Part shown: in pieces, positions 14,043 through 20,010 of the stretch
How positions within the stretch are numbered: the first letter of the stretch is position 1
Layout: every line of letters begins with the position of its first letter
Assembly: GCA_965218095.1 (NCBI GenBank)
Contig: OZ244587.1
Coordinates: 3,200,001 to 3,264,000, forward strand
From: Candidatus Poribacteria bacterium
GTDB lineage: Bacteria > Poribacteria > WGA-4E > PCPOR2b
Direction of reading: 5' to 3'
DNA length: 64,000 bases
Program-made: the position numbers and the translations under genes
The notes under the pieces: model-generated
What the model saw: the letters and a program-made list of their open reading frames with translations, nothing else
Databases searched by the model: none
What the model was told of the DNA's origin: nothing

Positions 14043-16337
14043 CTACACCAACCCCCTCCGCTTGCGCAAAAACCATTCCATTCCCAGAAATCCAACCGCA
14101 AGGATCAGGACAATCGGCGTATCCCATAAATTGCGCTCCTGAACAGCAAAGACCCGCTCTCGAACTTCTTTGATCTTTTCAGGTAAGGATGCGGCTTCGG
14201 CAATCGGGGTATAGAGTCCGCCGGTGTCGGCTGCAAGCTGCTTGAGCAAATCTTCGTTGAGTTGTGGATTCTCAAACTCTGCCAGTGGAGACTCGACAAA
14301 GATTTCCGTTGAATCCTCGCCGAGCGAAGATAAGCGATTGGCGCCCGAAGTACGGATTCGGTAAGCCCCCTTCTGGTTTGCACGGAATTGTGCAGTATAG
14401 GCGCCTGCGACCTGAGAGTTTGTTTCTGTACGGACTTGAAAGCGTTTCCCATCCGGCGGCGTAACTTCGATTTTGAGGTCTGCATCGTCCATCGGATGAT
14501 AACTCTCATTGTAAGCGTACGCTGTGATCTGGACTTCCTCACTGACCGAATAGGTTGTCAGATCTGTTGTGAGATTGATCTGTTTGGCGTCAGCCCGTGT
14601 CGCCATCCAGCGAACCGTCTGCCCCCAAAAGCGAGGGTAAGTATCGTCCTCATCTTTGAAATTCCAAACGCCAAACCCCCAATTCCATAGGCCTTCGGCG
14701 GAAATCAGGAGGCTTTTTCCCAATCCAAATCTCTGAAAAATGATGATCGGCATAGCGGTCTCACTTCTGTTCGGCCGATACACCGCAAGCGTTGTCGCCC
14801 CACCCCTGAGCCGGAACCCACCCAACCAGCGTGTCAGCGGCGGTAAATCACGCCAAATGGATTCAACTTTTGCCTGTGTATCTCCCAAACGGGTAATTGG
14901 GTGATACATGCCCTGTCGAGTCAATTCGGGACTAAAATCCTCATCTCGAACAAAGCAGCCATTGGTCGGGATGACAATCGGCAGGAGAGCTGCAAGGGCG
15001 GTCTTTTTGAAGCCTCTACGACCGAGCGAGTTTCGTCCGCCCAGGAATATCACAGATTTCCCTCGTTTTTCGACGAAATCGACGATGGCTGTGTGTTGCT
15101 CAGGGGTCAAAATGCCCAAGAGGAGATCACCAATGATGAGCACATCGTAAAACAGCAAATCATCAAGCGTCTCTGGAAAGTGTGGTATGTGATTCAGACC
15201 GCTTGTCTGTGGATAATATCCATCTGAACGTACCAACAGTGTGGCACGAAGTTGATTCGCGGAGTGGCTCGACAGGATAGCGCAGGTCGGATCAATATTT
15301 GGATCACGTTCGAGCGCACGTTTGAGAAAGGTGTATTCCCAACGCGGACGACCATCAATGTAAAACACACGCAACTTCGTCTTGACCACTTTCACGGGAA
15401 ATGCTTTTTCGTTGTTTTCGGGAGTAAGTTCGTCTTGCAGAACGGGAAGGGAAATGATGTATTGAAAGATGCCTTCCTCCTGCGGATTCAGGATGAACTC
15501 AATCACTTGAGCCGGCTCATCCGTCAGCGCGATTGGCGCTGTGTCAACAACCCGACCGTTCTTCATAAGTGAAATGCGAATTTTACTGCCTGCGTAGCCC
15601 GTGTGGTGTACGGTGACGCGGATCGGCACATCGTGCTCCATATAGACGACGGGACTTACCTCGATTTTTGAGATTTTGAGATCCTTTGGCGGGTGAGGGC
15701 TGCCGATGCCCACCGCGTAAATAGGGATTTGCATCTTGGCAACTTCAACCGCAGGCGTTGAAGCATTGTGCGCCCCATCAGTGAGAAGCACCACTCCAGC
15801 CAGTGGTTGCCCTCGCCACTCTTTGGAGGCATCGCGGATCGAGACGGCGATGTCCGTTAATCCACCTGAAGCCTCAAGGGTGCCAATTGTCTTGGAAATT
15901 TGATGGGCTTGCGCGTCAAACCGATAAAGATGAATGTCAAACCGGTTGGCGAGTGCTGCCAGAAAACGGCTTGTTGCGCCGGGTTGATTAGGCGAATCCG
16001 TGTCGAAACCATCGAATAAAAAGTGATTCACGAGGCTTAAACGCGCTGTTTGCTGATCCGCCAATTCCACATCCTCAAGCTGCATGCTTTGGGAGGTATC
16101 AGCAAGAATCAGCAGATTTGTTGGCGGGGTAATATCTTTTCGTTCAACCAGCACGGGTTCAAGCAGACAGAACAGCAACACCGACGCGGCTAAAATCCGC
16201 AGACTGATAAGGAGGGCTCTGAGCCTTTGACTCAGTGGGCGGTTCAAACGAAAGTAAGCATACGTCGTAACACTAGCCATGATCGCGAGTCCGAGCGCAA
16301 CCGCCCACCATGGCCAAAGATAAGTGAATCGCATCAA
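14043..16337 (-). CDS. Membrane protein with vWA domain and class I glutamine amidotransferase-like domain
   Basis: N-terminal TMs, MIDAS-like DTSQSM, LLTDGAHN, DGRPRWEYTFLKRAL, C-terminal EWFLRKRRGLV. Confidence 0.85.
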   Translation of the reverse strand: MMRFTYLWPWWAVALGLAIMASVTTYAYFRLNRPLSQRLRALLISLRILAASVLLFCLLEPVLVERKDITPPTNLLILADTSQSMQLEDVELADQQTARLSLVNHFLFDGFDTDSPNQPGATSRFLAALANRFDIHLYRFDAQAHQISKTIGTLEASGGLTDIAVSIRDASKEWRGQPLAGVVLLTDGAHNASTPAVEVAKMQIPIYAVGIGSPHPPKDLKISKIEVSPVVYMEHDVPIRVTVHHTGYAGSKIRISLMKNGRVVDTAPIALTDEPAQVIEFILNPQEEGIFQYIISLPVLQDELTPENNEKAFPVKVVKTKLRVFYIDGRPRWEYTFLKRALERDPNIDPTCAILSSHSANQLRATLLVRSDGYYPQTSGLNHIPHFPETLDDLLFYDVLIIGDLLLGILTPEQHTAIVDFVEKRGKSVIFLGGRNSLGRRGFKKTALAALLPIVIPTNGCFVRDEDFSPELTRQGMYHPITRLGDTQAKVESIWRDLPPLTRWLGGFRLRGGATTLAVYRPNRSETAMPIIIFQRFGLGKSLLISAEGLWNWGFGVWNFKDEDDTYPRFWGQTVRWMATRADAKQINLTTDLTTYSVSEEVQITAYAYNESYHPMDDADLKIEVTPPDGKRFQVRTETNSQVAGAYTAQFRANQKGAYRIRTSGANRLSSLGEDSTEIFVESPLAEFENPQLNEDLLKQLAADTGGLYTPIAEAASLPEKIKEVRERVFAVQERNLWDTPIVLILAVGFLGMEWFLRKRRGLV

Positions 16338-16465
16338 ATTCCCTTCTTCGCTGTAAATATTGGTGAATTATACCTTACCGCCTGAAAACCCGTCAACTGA
16401 AATCCCTGAACCGATTAAACGACGCTTCCGCTTGCAAAAAAATCAAGCCTTTTATAAATTTGGGG

Positions 16466-16494
16466 TTGACAAGGGCAAGTATCTTCTGTAGAAT
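16466..16494 (+). promoter_or_regulatory. Sigma70-like promoter
   Basis: TTGACA-N17-TAGAAT; a divergent TTGACG-N18-TATAAT lies on the minus strand at 16367-16396. Confidence 0.65.
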
Positions 16495-16744
16495 TAGCGT
16501 TGCGCTATACTTTACTTTACCGAATCAATCAATACGAATGAGGGAAAGAGATGTCCCAGGAAAACCATGCCGAGATAGAACAAAGCCCACAAGAAAACAC
16601 ATCCGATACCGACAACACCGTGAGTGCTTCGATTTCTGCGGAAAGTGGAATTATTACGCGCTTATAAGGTTTAGGCTTGCAAGTTTTGTGTAAATTTGAT
16701 ACAATATAGGCATCAAACCCTTATGAATAAAGGAGTTGAGATGA

Positions 16745-17626
16745 ATGAACTTGTTTGATGCTGTAGAACGATTTTCTGACCAAGAGAGTTGTATTAAACA
16801 CTTAGAAACTATCCGCTGGGGTGGCAAACCTGAGTGTCCATATTGCGAAAGTAAAAAGGTTGCACCGAAGAATGAAGCTAGCATAATTGGTCGTTGGAAT
16901 TGCCATACTTGTAAGTCAAGTTTCAATGTGTTACAGGGAACGATATTTCAAGGAACACAGATTCCACTTCAGAAGTGGTTTATGGCTATCCTGTTAATGA
17001 ACGATGCGAAGAAAAGCCTATCAAGTTGTCAAATGGCTCGTCATTTGGACTTAACGCAACCCTCAGCTTGGTTCATGATGAAACGAATCAGGTCTGAGAT
17101 GGGTAGAAAGGGCAAGGTTTTACTGAGAGGAATTATTGAATGCGATGAAACCTACGTGGGCGGTAAGCCCCGACGACGAAAAGACAAGGACGGGAACTTG
17201 CCTCCACCGAGCAAGCGAGGTAGAGGCACGAAGAAAACGCCCGTTATCGGTGCTGTTGAACGGGCTGGGAATGTTGTGGCGCGTGTGGCTACGAGTTTGA
17301 GTCGTAAGGGCGTTTTGGGGTTCATCAAAGGCGTTATTGAGAAGCCGAAGGATTCAGTTCTAATGACAGATGAGTTCTCATCGTATGAGGCGGTTGATGG
17401 GCTCATGCCTCACCATGTCATCAGACACAAGAACTGGCAGTACGTGGACGGTAATACCCACACAAACACGATTGAAGGGTTCTGGTCGCTGGTGAAACGT
17501 GCGTTTCATGGTACACATCACCACTACAAGCATGTTTCGCTCTACATCGCTGAGGCGTGTTACAAGTACAACAACCGGAAGAACCGGAACATCTTCAAGA
17601 AGTTTATCAGGGAATGCTTTGTGTAG
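16745..17626 (+). CDS. IS1595-family (ISXO2-like) transposase
   Basis: Zn ribbon CPYC..CHTC, GTIF, ECDETYVGGK, GRGTKK, TDEFSSY, HTNTIEGFWSLVKR. Confidence 0.95.
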   Translation: MNLFDAVERFSDQESCIKHLETIRWGGKPECPYCESKKVAPKNEASIIGRWNCHTCKSSFNVLQGTIFQGTQIPLQKWFMAILLMNDAKKSLSSCQMARHLDLTQPSAWFMMKRIRSEMGRKGKVLLRGIIECDETYVGGKPRRRKDKDGNLPPPSKRGRGTKKTPVIGAVERAGNVVARVATSLSRKGVLGFIKGVIEKPKDSVLMTDEFSSYEAVDGLMPHHVIRHKNWQYVDGNTHTNTIEGFWSLVKRAFHGTHHHYKHVSLYIAEACYKYNNRKNRNIFKKFIRECFV

Positions 17627-17664
17627 GGTGGGAAAACCTCTGGAGACTCCATAGAAGGATTAGA

Positions 17665-17859
17665 TTACACTATTTCCAACCTTTTGAAAATGGTTGTAAT
17701 TAGTGTGTAGTCATTTTTAAGTAACTGAATTGCAACTCTTAAATCTTCTACGGTTGCAGTAGAGGTAAATAACCTCTCTTCAATTCGGTGGGTTTTATCA
17801 GCATGTTTTTGTAGATGTTCTTTAACACGTTGAATATCCACCTTCCTTTGTGATGACAT
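17665..17859 (-). CDS. 64-aa helical hypothetical protein (IS cargo)
   Basis: AAAGGAGG RBS; ORF flanked by 14-bp IR TGGGAAAACCTCTG / CAGAGGTTTTCCCA. Confidence 0.6.
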   Translation of the reverse strand: MSSQRKVDIQRVKEHLQKHADKTHRIEERLFTSTATVEDLRVAIQLLKNDYTLITTIFKRLEIV

Positions 17860-17943
17860 AACATCTGCCTCCTTTCTGAGTCATATTTTCAGAGGTTTTC
17901 CCATAAGGGAGTGTCCGGTGGGAGCCGGACACTCTAGCAACAA

Positions 17944-17981
17944 AATATCAGGGAGTGCTTTGTGTAGCACCCCCTGATATT
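17944..17981 (-). terminator. Hairpin terminator for the cargo transcript; contains a copy of the transposase 3' end
   Basis: AATATCAGGG AGTGCT ttgtgt AGCAC CCCCTGATATT; followed on the minus strand by a T-rich run. Confidence 0.55.
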
Positions 17982-17990
17982 GCCTAAGAG

Positions 17991-18101
17991 TTATTGCTTA
18001 GGCGTAGCCGTATAAGGACTGCTATACGGCGTTTGATTACCCTTACGTTTAGCGATTTTGAGTACGATAAACGTAAAGGTTTTGCGTATTTTTATAAACA
18101 C
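17991..18101 (-). CDS. 36-aa basic micro-ORF (IS cargo)
   Basis: AAAGGAGG RBS then GTG; MFIKIRKTFTFIVLKIAKRKGNQTPYSSPYTATPKQ; overlaps the 59-aa ORF. Confidence 0.35.
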   Translation of the reverse strand: MFIKIRKTFTFIVLKIAKRKGNQTPYSSPYTATPKQ

Positions 18102-18228
18102 GATAATCCCTCCTTTCATTGGAATAAGTCGTGATGCAGAGGGTGTTATCAGCAGTTGTCCGTATATGTGGACTTACAAGCGTGCCGTCTTTACGCCTGT
18201 AAGACTTGATGTATTTGATGCGTGGCAT
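18049..18228 (-). CDS. 59-aa micro-ORF with YxRKDGTxVxPHxRT motif (IS cargo)
   Basis: AAGGAG RBS; MPRIKYIKSYRRKDGTLVSPHIRTTADN...; too short for the ORF track. Confidence 0.55.
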   Translation of the reverse strand: MPRIKYIKSYRRKDGTLVSPHIRTTADNTLCITTYSNERRDYRVYKNTQNLYVYRTQNR

Positions 18229-18293
18229 GGGGGGTCTCCTTTGCCATGTTGTGGCGGTGGGGGTGCTATAACACCCCCTCGCCTGTTTTATGT

Positions 18294-18734
18294 CTATCTC
18301 ATGTGCAATCTTCTAGCAACATTTCGGAGGGTTGTTTCGGTTTGCCCAAATCGTTCCTCCATTTGGGCATAACGCCCCTCTATACTATCTATTGACTTGA
18401 TGACTGCTACATGAGTTGCAAGGGTAGTTGTCATGTACCTGTCCATTCTCGTTACTGACTGTTGAAAAGAATCAAGTTTCTTGTCAATATCTTCAACAGG
18501 TACGGTTTTCTTCGCAGTTGCATCTCTAGTTTTCAGATTCTCTGCGATGTTGGTAAGCTCTACCCTTCTTAAATTGACGACTTCTTCTTTCAGTTGTTTT
18601 GCTTCATCTCTGAAGTCTATGAAGGACTTTCTGATACTATACAAATCGTCACTACTGGGAATGTGTTTCCAAATGAACTTTCCAGCAGCAATGATAATGA
18701 GTATATCCGCTACTACACTAAGAAAATCACTCAT
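18294..18734 (-). CDS. 146-aa protein, N-terminal TM helix plus coiled coil (IS cargo)
   Basis: AAAGGA RBS; FLSVVADILIIIAAGKFIW followed by a heptad-like helical region. Confidence 0.65.
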   Translation of the reverse strand: MSDFLSVVADILIIIAAGKFIWKHIPSSDDLYSIRKSFIDFRDEAKQLKEEVVNLRRVELTNIAENLKTRDATAKKTVPVEDIDKKLDSFQQSVTRMDRYMTTTLATHVAVIKSIDSIEGRYAQMEERFGQTETTLRNVARRLHMR

Positions 18735-19188
18735 TGGGGTGTCCTTTACTTTGGCGAGGAAAGGTAAAACAAGCCAACGATTTAATAAACTTCAGAATCA
18801 CAGGCTTGTAACACCCCAATAATATCACATATTCAAAGAATCTGCAAGCCAATTATTTATAAATGCGAAATATTATTAGCAACCAACAGATCCAGTCCAT
18901 TGAGATTTCCGATAAGTTCACAAGACAAAAAACGTCGGATGGTTGGTATATTACCTTCCAGCGTCCAGGTAAAGTCACCATTAATCTCACAACAAGTATG
19001 CGGAAAATAGAGGTGCTTCTTATCGAAGAAGACATCATCGAAAACGACGGCACGGATCTAATTATCCTGCGGAAGCACGCTCCTGATGCATATAAATCAA
19101 AAAGATCCGGAGCGCCCCTGGCTCGAAGTCGCGAAGAGCTGTTACAAGGGGGAACGACCGCAGTATAGCAGTTAAACGGGGGACTTTC

Positions 19189-19765
19189 ATGAAGCTGACT
19201 CGAACCATCAGGACTCAGATCAGCGAAGGGGGTGGGGTCAATTCAATCGGCGCCTATATTAGATAGAATTTACACGATAACCTTCAGCTTGAGAGGGGAA
19301 ATGATACCGGCGGAGATTGTCCTGAGTTCTGACACTCATCAAAAGATTGTGGAGGAATCGAAGGCTCAACAGGAAATCGGAACGGGAAAAGATCCGGTGT
19401 CGGTGCTTAAAGGTTACCTCTCAATTCCGATTACGATCCGAGAAGCGGATACAGACATTATCGTTGTAAAGGGACTTTATCCAAATCGTTGCCCCGTTTG
19501 TGGGCGTCACATTCCGTTCCTGCGGGAGATGATCGAGCGTATTGAATCCCACTCTATAAAACGCATCCGCTGTCCGCTAGGGCATCGGTATGAGGGGGAG
19601 ATCAAAATTTACCACTTGAACATCTTTCAGGAAGAACAATCGGAAACCGGGGCTGCTCAGATATGCCCACAGTGCGGGAGTGAAAACGTTCAGAATCTTA
19701 GCCAAACAGATGTCTTCTGTCTCGATTGCGAATGGGATAACCTGAAGCACATTTATGATCATTAG
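19189..19765 (+). CDS. Double Zn-ribbon protein; 5' end probably frameshifted in a G-run (alternative start ATG19301)
   Basis: CPVCG..CPLGH and CPQCG..CLDC; ATG19189 is out of frame by 1 nt near the GGGGG run at about 19228-19232. Confidence 0.6.
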
Positions 19766-19837
19766 ATGTGGGGTGGTTCATTTTACTATGTTATCACAAA
19801 ATAGATAGGAAACCTGCACAGCACCTCAAAAGCCCCA

Positions 19838-19897
19838 TGTAAAACGTGAAACGTAAAACGTAAAAATTTTACGCATTACGTTTTACGCAGTACGCGC
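19838..19897. repeat. Heptamer inverted hairpin array
   Basis: aaacgtg aaacgta aaacgta aaaat tttacgc attacgt tttacgc. Confidence 0.85.
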
Positions 19898-19971
19898 CAT
19901 GGATGTTGGGGGCGAATACCTTCTCAACAATTTAGTGATAGTACACCATTCTTTTTTCGTTTGCCTCAAAT

Positions 19972-20010
19972 AAAAAAGCCATGCTGGTACATATCAACAG
20001 CATGGCTTTT
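19972..20010. terminator. Intrinsic terminator downstream of groEL (probably bidirectional)
   Basis: AAAAAAGCCATGCTG...CAGCATGGCTTTT. Confidence 0.8.

What the first reader, a model, noticed from the sequence alone, without database searches (positions are those of the whole stretch)
16657..18850. IS1595 with promoter-like ends driving a convergent, hairpin-punctuated micro-ORF array (best candidate novel system)
Seen: both ends read GGC-TTGCA(A/G)-N14-TGA-TA(C/T)(A/T)AT, i.e. inward-facing -35/extended -10 motifs with 17-bp spacing (16677-16705 +; 18819-18847 -). The left would drive the transposase. The right would drive minus-strand cargo of 146, 59, 36 and 64 aa, each with a strong RBS and separated by GC-rich hairpins (about 18253-18283, 18007-18030, 17982-18003, 17944-17981, 17909-17934). 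Passenger genes in IS1595 are established; this structured cassette-like array is not one I recognise. Inference: a gene-capture/expression platform or a type I TA/defence-like cargo, with antisense control of the transposase.
Basis: partly seen in the sequence, partly recalled or inferred. Interest (0 to 1): 0.75.

Follow-up and report, generated by a model that had tools for sequence, protein, structure and literature searches.

The report
Active IS1595 element carrying small passenger genes
This is a recently active jumping gene of a known family (IS1595) that carries three small genes of unknown function read inward from its right end: an ordinary kind of element with an unusual, patchwork cargo.

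Summary
The feature is real. It is a 2,211-bp IS1595-family insertion sequence (window 16657-18867, not 18850). The genome holds nine copies, identical or differing by one base, each with 8-9 bp target duplications. A related population carries the empty site. Both tips carry the same promoter-like motif at the same distance. The right one belongs to an outer, left-end-like terminus added outside an older right end.

Three minus-strand ORFs (146, 59 and 64 aa) have strong ribosome-binding sites. The 36-aa ORF does not. All five reported hairpins fold far better than shuffles, and there is a sixth.

The cargo is a mosaic. The 59-aa ORF is the first 27 residues of a conserved 61-aa basic protein, with its 3' half replaced by 169 bp of hairpin DNA. 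A 22-bp remnant of the transposase 3' end sits inside the cargo. Relatives keep the right-end promoter, leader and start codon but carry other small membrane proteins. More distant relatives carry a DNA methylase or a peptidase-like gene.

I found no recombinase, no attC-like sites and no toxin or defence family match. Strand-specific transcription is untested.

Verdict: a new member of the known "transporter IS" kind, of modest interest.

The parts
16649..16656 (.). Left copy of the 8-bp target duplication (AATTATTA). The right copy is 18868-18875 and differs at one base.
   Evidence: The empty-site contig joins 16651 to 18871.
16657..18867 (.). The whole insertion sequence, 2,211 bp.
   Evidence: Nine copies in the genome: 7 identical and 2 with one base changed. 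8 of 9 have perfect 8-9 bp target duplications.
16657..16710 (+). Left terminal inverted repeat. It contains the transposase promoter-like site (TTGCAA 16677-16682, 17 nt, TG-n-TACAAT 16700-16705).
   Evidence: (I1: 50-nt arms, 70% complementary).
16745..17626 (+). IS1595-family transposase, 293 aa (zinc ribbon plus DDE domain).
   Evidence: PF12762 1.6e-34, PF12760 3.6e-08, NF033547 1.4e-53.
17605..17626 (+). Last 22 nt of the transposase gene. This is the first copy of a 22-bp direct repeat.
   Evidence: (D3, 95% identity with 17946-17967).
17629..17903 (.). 275-bp unit bounded by a perfect 14-bp inverted repeat (17629-17642 and 17890-17903). It holds the 64-aa ORF and its ribosome-binding site.
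   Evidence: (I6, 100% complementary).
17665..17859 (-). 64-aa ORF. Predicted helical hairpin, pI 9.6, upstream AGAAAGGAGG.
   Evidence: (pLDDT 84.7). The only relative is P0004 at 89%.
17909..17934 (-). Hairpin hpB (10-bp stem). It resembles the hairpin at the same place in two paralogous elements.
   Evidence: (-19.1 kcal/mol, z -5.9).
17944..17981 (-). Hairpin hp1 (16-bp stem followed by UUUUGUUG on the minus strand). It is terminator-like. Its plus-strand arm is the 22-bp remnant of a transposase 3' end (17946-17967).
   Evidence: -26.2 kcal/mol, z -8.4. The same hairpin spans the transposase stop codon in G081 and G021 relatives.
17979..18147 (.). 169-bp segment holding hairpins hp2 (17982-18003), hp3 (18007-18030) and hp4 (18039-18080). 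It replaces the 110 nt found in the sibling variant.
   Evidence: (joint 17978 to 18148 with 110 letters between, in 3 of 3 RNA-library runs).
18049..18228 (-). 59-aa ORF. Residues 1-27 (18148-18228) are the N-terminus of a conserved 61-aa basic protein. Residues 28-59 come from the replacing segment.
   Evidence: P0006 is 100% identical over its first 27 residues and then unrelated. A full 61-aa homologue lies next to the transposase in G021.
18253..18283 (-). Hairpin hpA, between the 146-aa and 59-aa ORFs.
   Evidence: -22.9 kcal/mol, z -4.7.
18294..18734 (-). 146-aa ORF. N-terminal membrane helix plus two long helices (coiled-coil-like), upstream AAGGA.
   Evidence: Three relatives in the protein searches: P0001 99%, P0002 67-69%, P0008 48% over residues 5-73. 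3 of 4 differences from the sibling variant are silent.
18735..18813 (-). Leader of the cargo transcript. It includes an inner, older right-end repeat (about 18768-18792).
   Evidence: D11, I24. (alignment with G081 and two paralogues).
18814..18867 (-). Outer right terminal repeat. It resembles the left end and carries an inward promoter-like site (TTGCAG 18847-18842, 17 nt, TG-n-TATTAT 18824-18819).
   Evidence: It is 89% identical to the right end of G081:C44 as far as the ATG.

Best explanation
This is an active IS1595-family 'transporter' insertion sequence, meaning an IS that carries passenger genes between its inverted repeats.

SHOWN. The element moves as a 2,211-bp unit and makes 8-9 bp target duplications. 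It has spread to nine sites very recently, and a related population lacks it at this site.

ANATOMY. The left repeat holds the transposase promoter. The right end is double. An outer terminus copies the left-end design, promoter included. Inside it lies an older right-end repeat, followed by a conserved leader, a ribosome-binding site and an ATG.

INFERRED. The outer right promoter drives the cargo on the minus strand. The order is: a 146-aa membrane-anchored coiled-coil protein, hairpin, a truncated 61-aa basic protein, four hairpins, then a 64-aa helical protein. Hairpin hp1 is the old convergent terminator of the transposase gene and still carries 22 nt of a transposase 3' end. The hairpins act as terminators or RNA-stabilising stems. 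They keep the two convergent transcription units apart.

ORIGIN OF THE CARGO. The array was not captured cassette by cassette. It is a patchwork made by recombination and replacement among related ISs that share the transposase gene and the right-end leader.

FUNCTION (inference only). The passenger proteins are accessory, 'moron'-like genes. They are small envelope or nucleic-acid-binding proteins expressed from the IS promoter and are not needed for transposition. The version with the broken 61-aa gene is the one that multiplied here.
For: FAMILY AND MOBILITY. Transposase family matches. Nine copies, 7 identical and 2 with one base changed. Target duplications perfect in 8 of 9 copies and 7 of 8 bases in the window copy. 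Empty site: one contig in DNA run X5 (230 nt on the shorter side, 0 mismatches) and one in X9 join 16651 to 18871.

ENDS. Both promoter-like motifs lie 21-49 nt from their tips. A -10-like hexamer sits at the same place in the right ends of G081 and paralogue 2551. The inner repeat plus leader is shared with paralogue 5095, which lacks the outer part.

CONSERVED SOCKET, CHANGING ORF. Right end plus leader is 89% identical over 132 bp to G081:C44, and likeness ends at the ATG. The first ORF differs between elements: 146-aa membrane helix plus coiled coil here, a 125-aa signal/membrane protein in G081, and a 67-aa two-helix membrane protein in paralogue 5095.

MOSAIC. The 59-aa ORF is 27 residues of the 61-aa protein P0006 joined to unrelated sequence. 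The intact 61-aa gene lies convergent to the transposase in a roughly 1.4-kb G021 element. There is a 22-bp transposase 3' remnant here and a 29-bp one in paralogue 5095.

CARGO IS USUAL IN THE CLADE. Ten pairs of copies were compared. For eight, the pairs were 97-100% identical over shared lengths of 1,178 to 3,034 bp, which I take as the element lengths. The G021 and G022 pairs shared only 1.0-1.1 kb at 94% and 82%, so gave no length. Cargo includes a DNA methylase (PF01555, 4.5e-45), peptidase-like ORFs, and a 125-129-aa membrane protein shared by G081 and G099 (31% identity, 4e-11).

HAIRPINS..

CODING SIGNS. Strong Shine-Dalgarno sites. 3 of 4 nucleotide differences in the 146-aa ORF are silent. 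The N-terminal 75 residues are conserved in P0002 and P0008. The 64-aa ORF gives a confident helical-hairpin model, pLDDT 84.7.
Against: No strand-specific RNA evidence. The RNA-library contigs that span the transposase 3' half through the cargo show neither strand nor transcription, and the library may contain DNA.

The right promoter has a poor -35 (3 of 6) and failed the scan's threshold.

All three cargo proteins are near-orphans with no family. The assigned role is therefore inference.

Two G021 copies of the 61-aa gene differ at 10 of 60 codons, 9 of them with an amino-acid change. That shows no sign of purifying selection.

Codon-usage scores of the 146-aa and 64-aa ORFs (0.07) equal the transposase (0.05) but lie below host genes (0.15 +/- 0.07), and the test is weak for short ORFs.

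The recombination history is reconstructed from three or four relatives, not observed.
Confidence: 0.75

Rival explanations
1. Gene-capture and expression platform. The right end is a fixed promoter-leader-ATG socket, and the hairpins are recombination sites at which ORF units are inserted, exchanged or lost, as in an integron but carried by an IS.
For: Likeness between relatives stops at the start codon while the ORF changes.

A transposase 3' remnant lies next to hairpin hp1 in two different elements.

A 169-bp versus 110-nt replacement starts right after hp1.

The 64-aa unit is bounded by a perfect 14-bp inverted repeat.

Hairpin types recur between elements next to different ORFs.
Against: No integrase or other recombinase lies inside the element; only the transposase has a family match.

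0 attC-like RYYYAAC...GTTRRRY pairs were found, against 0.37 in shuffles.

The six hairpins share no common core. The longest shared word is 10 nt for one pair and at most 7 for the rest.

All nine copies carry the same cargo.

None of the three ORFs occurs outside the IS in this genome.

The shared 'CAGAAAGGAGG' is simply a long Shine-Dalgarno sequence.
Confidence: 0.1
2. Toxin-antitoxin or defence cargo. The small membrane protein is a toxin or abortive-infection effector. A partner ORF, or an antisense transcript from the convergent transposase unit, neutralises it. This stabilises the IS or protects the host from phage.
For: The first cargo ORF is a small membrane protein in three related elements.

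Transcription is convergent, and no terminator lies between the transposase stop (17626) and the 64-aa ORF stop (17665).

More distant relatives carry a DNA methylase.
Against: PADLOC gives only two 14-bit coiled-coil matches. Pfam, NCBIfam and PHROGs give nothing above their cut-offs.

The protein is 146 aa with about 120 residues of soluble helix, unlike type I toxins.

Nine expressed copies of a toxin would be costly.

hp1 is terminator-like on the cargo strand, so it would stop the 146/59-aa transcript before it reaches the transposase gene.
Confidence: 0.08
3. The cargo ORFs are not functional genes. They are decaying leftovers of earlier recombination, and the element is in effect a long IS with junk DNA.
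For: The 59-aa ORF is demonstrably a broken gene.

The proteins are near-orphans and were not found in the 175 other genomes of the phylum.

There is no sign of purifying selection in the 61-aa gene copies of G021.
Against: Long Shine-Dalgarno sites lie at correct spacing before three ORFs.

3 of 4 changes in the 146-aa ORF are silent.

The N-terminal domain of the 146-aa protein is conserved at 44% identity in an 85-aa protein.

The frames remain open in variants that are 67-89% identical.
Confidence: 0.12

Closest known systems
IS1595-family insertion sequences with passenger genes ('transporter ISs'; Siguier, Gagnevin & Chandler 2009). I saw this only as cited in passages of the ISsaga paper PMC3129680. 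The 2009 paper itself was not read.
   Same: IS1595-type zinc-ribbon plus DDE transposase, terminal inverted repeats, 8-bp target duplication, and extra genes unrelated to transposition carried between the repeats.
   Different: The cargo here is three small orphan ORFs convergent on the transposase. Each has a long Shine-Dalgarno site, and they are separated by six hairpins. The right end is double (outer left-end-like terminus plus inner older repeat). The cargo is a visible mosaic that contains a transposase 3' remnant.
Integron gene cassettes (promoter Pc plus attC hairpins). Recalled, not from a call.
   Same: One promoter at the edge, promoterless ORFs in series, and a hairpin after each ORF. 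ORF content differs between relatives.
   Different: No IntI recombinase, no attI, and no attC core sites. The cargo is identical in all nine copies. The unit that moves is the whole IS.
IS10/IS50-type control by transcripts from promoters in the IS ends. Recalled, not from a call.
   Same: Promoters lie inside the terminal repeats. Opposed transcription could lower transposase expression.
   Different: Here the opposing promoter is at the far end, about 2 kb away, with protein-coding ORFs and terminator-like hairpins in between. No antisense RNA has been shown.
Type I toxin-antitoxin modules. Recalled, not from a call.
   Same: A small membrane protein next to a convergent transcription unit on a mobile element.
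   Different: The protein is 146 aa and mostly soluble coiled coil. No antisense RNA gene was identified and there is no family match.

Membership tests
IS1595 family of insertion sequences | Transposase with the IS1595/ISXO2-type DDE catalytic domain | tested here: met
   PF12762 at 1.6e-34 (119.6 bits, cut-off 27). NF033547 at 1.4e-53 (181.9 bits, cut-off 75)..
IS1595 family of insertion sequences | N-terminal zinc-ribbon domain | tested here: met
   PF12760 at 3.6e-08 (33.7 bits, cut-off 25.4), residues 12-57.
IS1595 family of insertion sequences | Terminal inverted repeats | tested here: met
   50-nt arms, 70% complementary, at the tips defined by nine copies.
IS1595 family of insertion sequences | 8-bp target site duplication (the family value is recalled, not from a call) | tested here: met
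   6 copies have 8 bp, 2 have 9 bp, and the window copy has 7 of 8 bases.
IS1595 family of insertion sequences | Assignment to a named subgroup (ISPna2, ISNwi1, ISNha5 and others; names recalled) | not tested
Transporter IS (IS with passenger genes) | Extra ORFs lie between the inverted repeats and move with the element | tested here: met
   The cargo is identical in all nine copies, which lie at nine different target sites.
Transporter IS (IS with passenger genes) | Passenger genes are not needed for transposition | not testable with these tools
   Indirect only. A related IS of 1,178 bp (G161) has no cargo, and the 61-aa gene is broken in the version that multiplied.
Integron / gene-cassette array | Site-specific tyrosine recombinase (IntI) next to the array | tested here: not met
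   No ORF in 16657-18867 other than the transposase has a Pfam or NCBIfam match above cut-off.
Integron / gene-cassette array | attC sites with paired core motifs flanking each ORF | tested here: not met
   0 RYYYAAC...GTTRRRY pairs 40-150 nt apart in 17600-18867 on either strand, against a shuffle mean of 0.37. No attC structural model was available, so this tests the motif only.
Type I toxin-antitoxin | Short hydrophobic toxin peptide (typically under 60 aa; recalled) | tested here: not met
   The only ORF with a membrane helix is 146 aa, with one helix at residues 1-19 followed by long soluble helices.
Type I toxin-antitoxin | Antisense RNA overlapping the toxin mRNA | not testable with these tools
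   Only unstranded contigs of RNA libraries were available. Rfam gave no match in 15500-20000 at E up to 1.
Known anti-phage defence systems (PADLOC) | A protein matching a defence-system model | tested here: not met
   Only Avs2 and JetC matches at 14 bits on the coiled-coil part of the 146-aa ORF. The other four ORFs gave none.

The most novel reading that the evidence does not exclude
The right end of this IS lineage is a fixed expression socket: promoter, leader, ribosome-binding site and ATG. Unrelated small membrane-protein genes have been slotted into it repeatedly. The hairpin at the transposase 3' end is a recurrent junction for adding further ORF-plus-hairpin units. This would make it an IS-borne gene-capture system that works without a dedicated integrase, perhaps through the transposase or through hairpin-directed template switching.
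Probability: 0.1. Interest if true: 0.7.

Novelty: new member of a known kind. Interest (0 to 1): 0.3.

Why it matters
The element shows how a simple IS can become a vehicle for expressed small genes. It is an unusually clean, recently active example, with nine near-identical copies, a known empty site and a sibling variant.

Three experiments follow directly. Test whether the inward right-end promoter is active. Test whether small orphan membrane proteins give the host or the element an advantage. Test whether loss of the conserved 61-aa basic protein changes transposition frequency.

The wider observation may interest people who study mobile DNA in symbiont communities. Relatives of the transposase occur in genomes labelled as several different phyla, and the cargo differs between them.

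For genome annotation, the practical point is that the three ORFs and the interrupted 132-aa host gene belong to one IS insertion.

Tried and rejected
CARGO HOMOLOGUES.
- Pfam, PHROGs, PADLOC and NCBIfam gave nothing above their cut-offs for the cargo ORFs.
- The word-indexed search of 5.8 billion proteins gave only near-copies: P0001 and P0002 for the 146-aa ORF, P0004 for the 64-aa ORF, P0006 for the 59-aa ORF.
- The exhaustive HMMER search with the 146-aa ORF gave 4 hits at E <= 0.001. Two of them (P0007, P0009) are long coiled-coil proteins that I take as noise.
- The 146-aa and 64-aa ORFs were not found in the 175 other genomes of the phylum. Three 18-19-bit matches at E 0.005-0.009 are taken as noise.

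FETCHING VARIANT LOCI. Metagenome-contig scans with P0001 and P0006, and a genome-contig scan with the alignment of the 146-aa family, confirmed no relative.

A RESEMBLANCE THAT FAILED. By eye, the 64-aa ORF resembled a 69-aa ORF at the same position in a G063 element. BLASTP found no alignment at E <= 100, so I dropped the claim.

STRUCTURE. The 64-aa model had 0 PDB matches at E <= 0.001, only generic helical hairpins. The 146-aa model (pLDDT 68) was not searched.

RNA FAMILIES. No Rfam match in 15500-20000.

RNA-LIBRARY COVERAGE. Contigs cover most of the element, but they cannot show strand, ends or level. Bins without cover, and the low depth over 18038-18128, are no evidence. The X5 joints 17631 to 17947 and 17978 to 18759 have short sides (42 and 29 nt) and unknown letters between, so I did not use them.

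CODON-USAGE SCORING. It puts the 146-aa and 64-aa ORFs level with the transposase but cannot separate short real genes from chance ORFs.

HAIRPINS AS A GENOME-WIDE REPEAT. Rejected. There were 7 and 3 strict matches outside the nine copies, similar to control patterns.

INVERSION OF THE 275-bp UNIT. No strand-changing joint was reported, and all nine copies have one orientation.

Supplementary files of papers were not requested. The 2009 IS1595 paper was not available to me, and its tables of passenger genes may bear on novelty.

LITERATURE. Searches for 'IS1595' with 'passenger genes' gave 17 papers, of which I read passages from two. 'Poribacteria' with 'transposase' and 'insertion sequence' gave 4 papers, seen as listing only. 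Neither search turned up this element.

Full report
WHAT IS THERE

The ORF at 16745-17626 (+, 293 aa) is an IS1595-family transposase. It matches PF12762 (1.6e-34), the IS1595 zinc ribbon PF12760 (3.6e-08) and NCBIfam NF033547 (1.4e-53).

A search of the window's own 6.35-Mb genome found nine full-length copies. Aligning their flanks fixes the ends at 16657 and 18867, which gives 2,211 bp. Seven copies are identical and two differ by one base in the transposase gene. Eight have perfect 8- or 9-bp target duplications. The window copy has 7 of 8 bases matching.

In a public DNA run (X5), a 2,657-nt contig matches 16400-16651 and 18871-19100 without a mismatch and skips the element. One contig of run X9 does the same. 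The insertion at this site is therefore recent and polymorphic. It splits a 132-aa host ORF.

Its end is 17 bp short.

THE ENDS

Both tips carry TTGCA(A/G), a 17-nt spacer, then TG-n-TA(C/T)(A/T)AT at positions 21-49 from the tip.

The consensus scan lists only the left site. It finds no excess of promoter-like sites in the region: 3 against 5.6 +/- 2.3 in shuffles. The motif's weight therefore comes from its context.

Aligning the ends of this IS with those of a 79%-related element (G081:C44) and two paralogues in the same genome shows that the right end is double. An outer terminus of about 54 bp resembles the left end, promoter included. About 75 bp further in lies a second, older right-end repeat, followed by a leader that ends in AAGGACACCCCA-ATG. 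Paralogue 5095600-5098873 has only the inner type. This explains why both ends read alike.

THE CARGO

Three minus-strand ORFs have long Shine-Dalgarno sites.

- The 146-aa ORF (18294-18734) has one N-terminal membrane helix and two long helices.
- The 59-aa ORF (18049-18228) is basic, with pI 10.2.
- The 64-aa ORF (17665-17859) is modelled as a helical hairpin with pLDDT 84.7.
- The 36-aa ORF has a GTG start, no ribosome-binding site, and overlaps both a hairpin and the start of the 64-aa ORF. I discount it.

No cargo ORF has a family match in Pfam, PHROGs, PADLOC or NCBIfam. Large protein searches give only near-copies and two partial relatives.

hp1 (17944-17981) is terminator-like on the cargo strand.

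THE CARGO IS A MOSAIC

First, the last 22 nt of the transposase gene (17605-17626) recur at 17946-17967 as one arm of hp1. In the G081 and G021 relatives the same hairpin straddles the transposase stop codon. hp1 is therefore the original convergent terminator. The block between the two repeats, which holds the 64-aa ORF, its hairpin hpB and a perfect 14-bp inverted repeat around the ORF, has been placed between the transposase gene and its old terminator. Paralogue 5095 shows the same kind of 29-bp remnant, with 1.7 kb of other ORFs in between.

Second, contigs from three RNA-library runs carry a sibling variant in which 17979-18147 (169 bp, hairpins hp2-hp4) is replaced by 110 other letters. 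The matching protein P0006 (61 aa, pI 11.4) shares its first 27 residues with the 59-aa ORF and then differs. A 62%-identical 61-aa gene lies directly convergent to the transposase in a simple G021 element of about 1.4 kb. The window's 59-aa ORF is therefore a broken copy of a conserved IS-linked gene. Its N-terminal motif also occurs inside larger ORFs in 15 other genomes of the phylum and has no Pfam family.

Third, the right end and leader are 89% identical to G081:C44 over 132 bp, and likeness ends at the ATG. The ORF behind it is unrelated in each element: a 125-aa signal/membrane protein in G081 and a 67-aa two-helix membrane protein in paralogue 5095.

THE CLADE

The transposase has relatives at E <= 1e-20 in 107 of 176 genomes of the phylum, this genome included. 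I compared ten pairs of copies from other genomes. Eight pairs were 97-100% identical over shared lengths of 1,178 to 3,034 bp, which I take as the element lengths. The G021 and G022 pairs shared only 1.0-1.1 kb at 94% and 82%, so gave no length.

Cargo in these elements includes a DNA methylase (PF01555, 4.5e-45), peptidase-like ORFs, and a 125-129-aa membrane protein shared by G081 and G099 (31% identity, 4e-11). Cargo between the transposase gene and the right end is therefore usual in this clade.

Record titles place the near relatives in Candidatus Poribacteria. Further relatives lie in genomes labelled Latescibacterota, Chloroflexota, Nitrosomonadaceae, Alphaproteobacteria and Pedosphaera.

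HOW IT MOST LIKELY WORKS

Shown: a mobile 2.2-kb IS that carries its cargo along.

Inferred: the left repeat's promoter drives the transposase. The outer right repeat's promoter drives the 146-aa and 59-aa ORFs as far as hp1. The 64-aa ORF is read by read-through or from a weak promoter of its own. No terminator lies between its stop (17665) and the transposase stop (17626), so these two units could interfere with each other. The other hairpins separate or stabilise the messages.

The passenger proteins are best read as accessory genes expressed from the IS. A small envelope protein sits in the first slot in three relatives. They do not look like part of the transposition machinery, because a cargo-free relative exists and the version with the broken 61-aa gene is the one that multiplied.

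Signs that the ORFs code: 3 of 4 differences in the 146-aa ORF are silent, its N-terminal domain is conserved, and the Shine-Dalgarno sites are long.

Signs against: the proteins are near-orphans, and two G021 copies of the 61-aa gene show mostly amino-acid-changing differences.

RIVALS

An integron-like capture platform is not excluded. Breakpoints lie at the ATG and at hp1, and hairpin types recur. It lacks a recombinase, attC-like cores and any cargo variation among the nine copies. Recombination among related ISs that share the transposase gene and the leader suffices to explain the pattern.

A toxin-antitoxin or defence role has no family support, and the protein is unlike a type I toxin.

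Junk DNA is plausible for the 59-aa ORF but less so for the other two.

COMPARISON AND VERDICT

Passenger-carrying IS1595 elements ('transporter ISs') are in print. I saw this only as cited in passages of PMC3129680, not in the original paper. This element meets every family feature that I could test. It is a new member of that kind, with an unusual small-ORF, hairpin-punctuated, mosaic cargo and a double right end.

Interest is modest at 0.3. The bold reading, an integrase-free expression socket with recurrent capture, keeps about a 0.1 probability.

Noticed in passing
window 16551-16656 and 18868-19168: The IS splits a 132-aa host ORF of unknown function. With the IS removed, as in the empty-site contig, the frame is open for 132 codons. 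The last bases of the IS supply an in-frame ATG (18863) to the downstream part.
   Followed up: partly
window 16466-16494: Near-consensus promoter-like site (TTGACA, 17 nt, TAGAAT; 11 of 12) just upstream of the interrupted host ORF.
   Followed up: no
G000:C1:5095600-5098873 (loci L010, L020): A 3.27-kb paralogous IS. Its transposase is 78% identical in DNA but broken by a frameshift or TGA. It has a 267-bp internal direct repeat (95%), a 29-bp transposase 3' remnant and different cargo: plus-strand ORFs, a 67-aa two-helix membrane protein and a 57-aa ORF on the minus strand.
   Followed up: partly
G000:C1:2551370-2552660: Fragment of another related element. It keeps the right end, the type-2 hairpin, a long Shine-Dalgarno site, a homologue of the 57-aa ORF and the hp1/hp2 pair, with no transposase match beside it.
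   Followed up: partly
loci L116-L172: Transposases 50-63% identical occur, often in many copies, in genomes titled Candidatus Latescibacterota, Chloroflexota/Caldilineaceae, Nitrosomonadaceae, Alphaproteobacteria, Pedosphaera and Dehalococcoidia as well as Candidatus Poribacteria. This suggests spread of the IS clade across phyla. None of the window's cargo proteins was found within 2.5 kb of those copies.
   Followed up: partly
G000:C1:2047557-2048279 (locus L114) and loci L095-L104: The basic motif of the 61-aa protein (Y-x-R-K-D-G-T-x-V-x-x-H-x-R ... P-D-G-N-x-Y-N-N) recurs, sometimes twice, inside larger ORFs of 144-397 codons in 15 other genomes of the phylum. It has no Pfam family.
   Followed up: partly
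L073/L074 (G162), L091/L092 (G100): Related ISs carry other cargo. A 2,457-bp element with at least 13 matches in G162 carries a 497-aa DNA methylase (PF01555, 4.5e-45). A 3,034-bp element in G100 carries two overlapping ORFs with a zinc-peptidase motif.
   Followed up: partly
window 17629-17642 and 17890-17903: A perfect 14-bp inverted repeat brackets the 64-aa ORF and its ribosome-binding site. The flanks are similar (TAGGG on one side, TAAGGG on the other). It could be a long-range RNA stem, the ends of a small inserted unit or an invertible segment. No inverted form was seen.
   Followed up: partly
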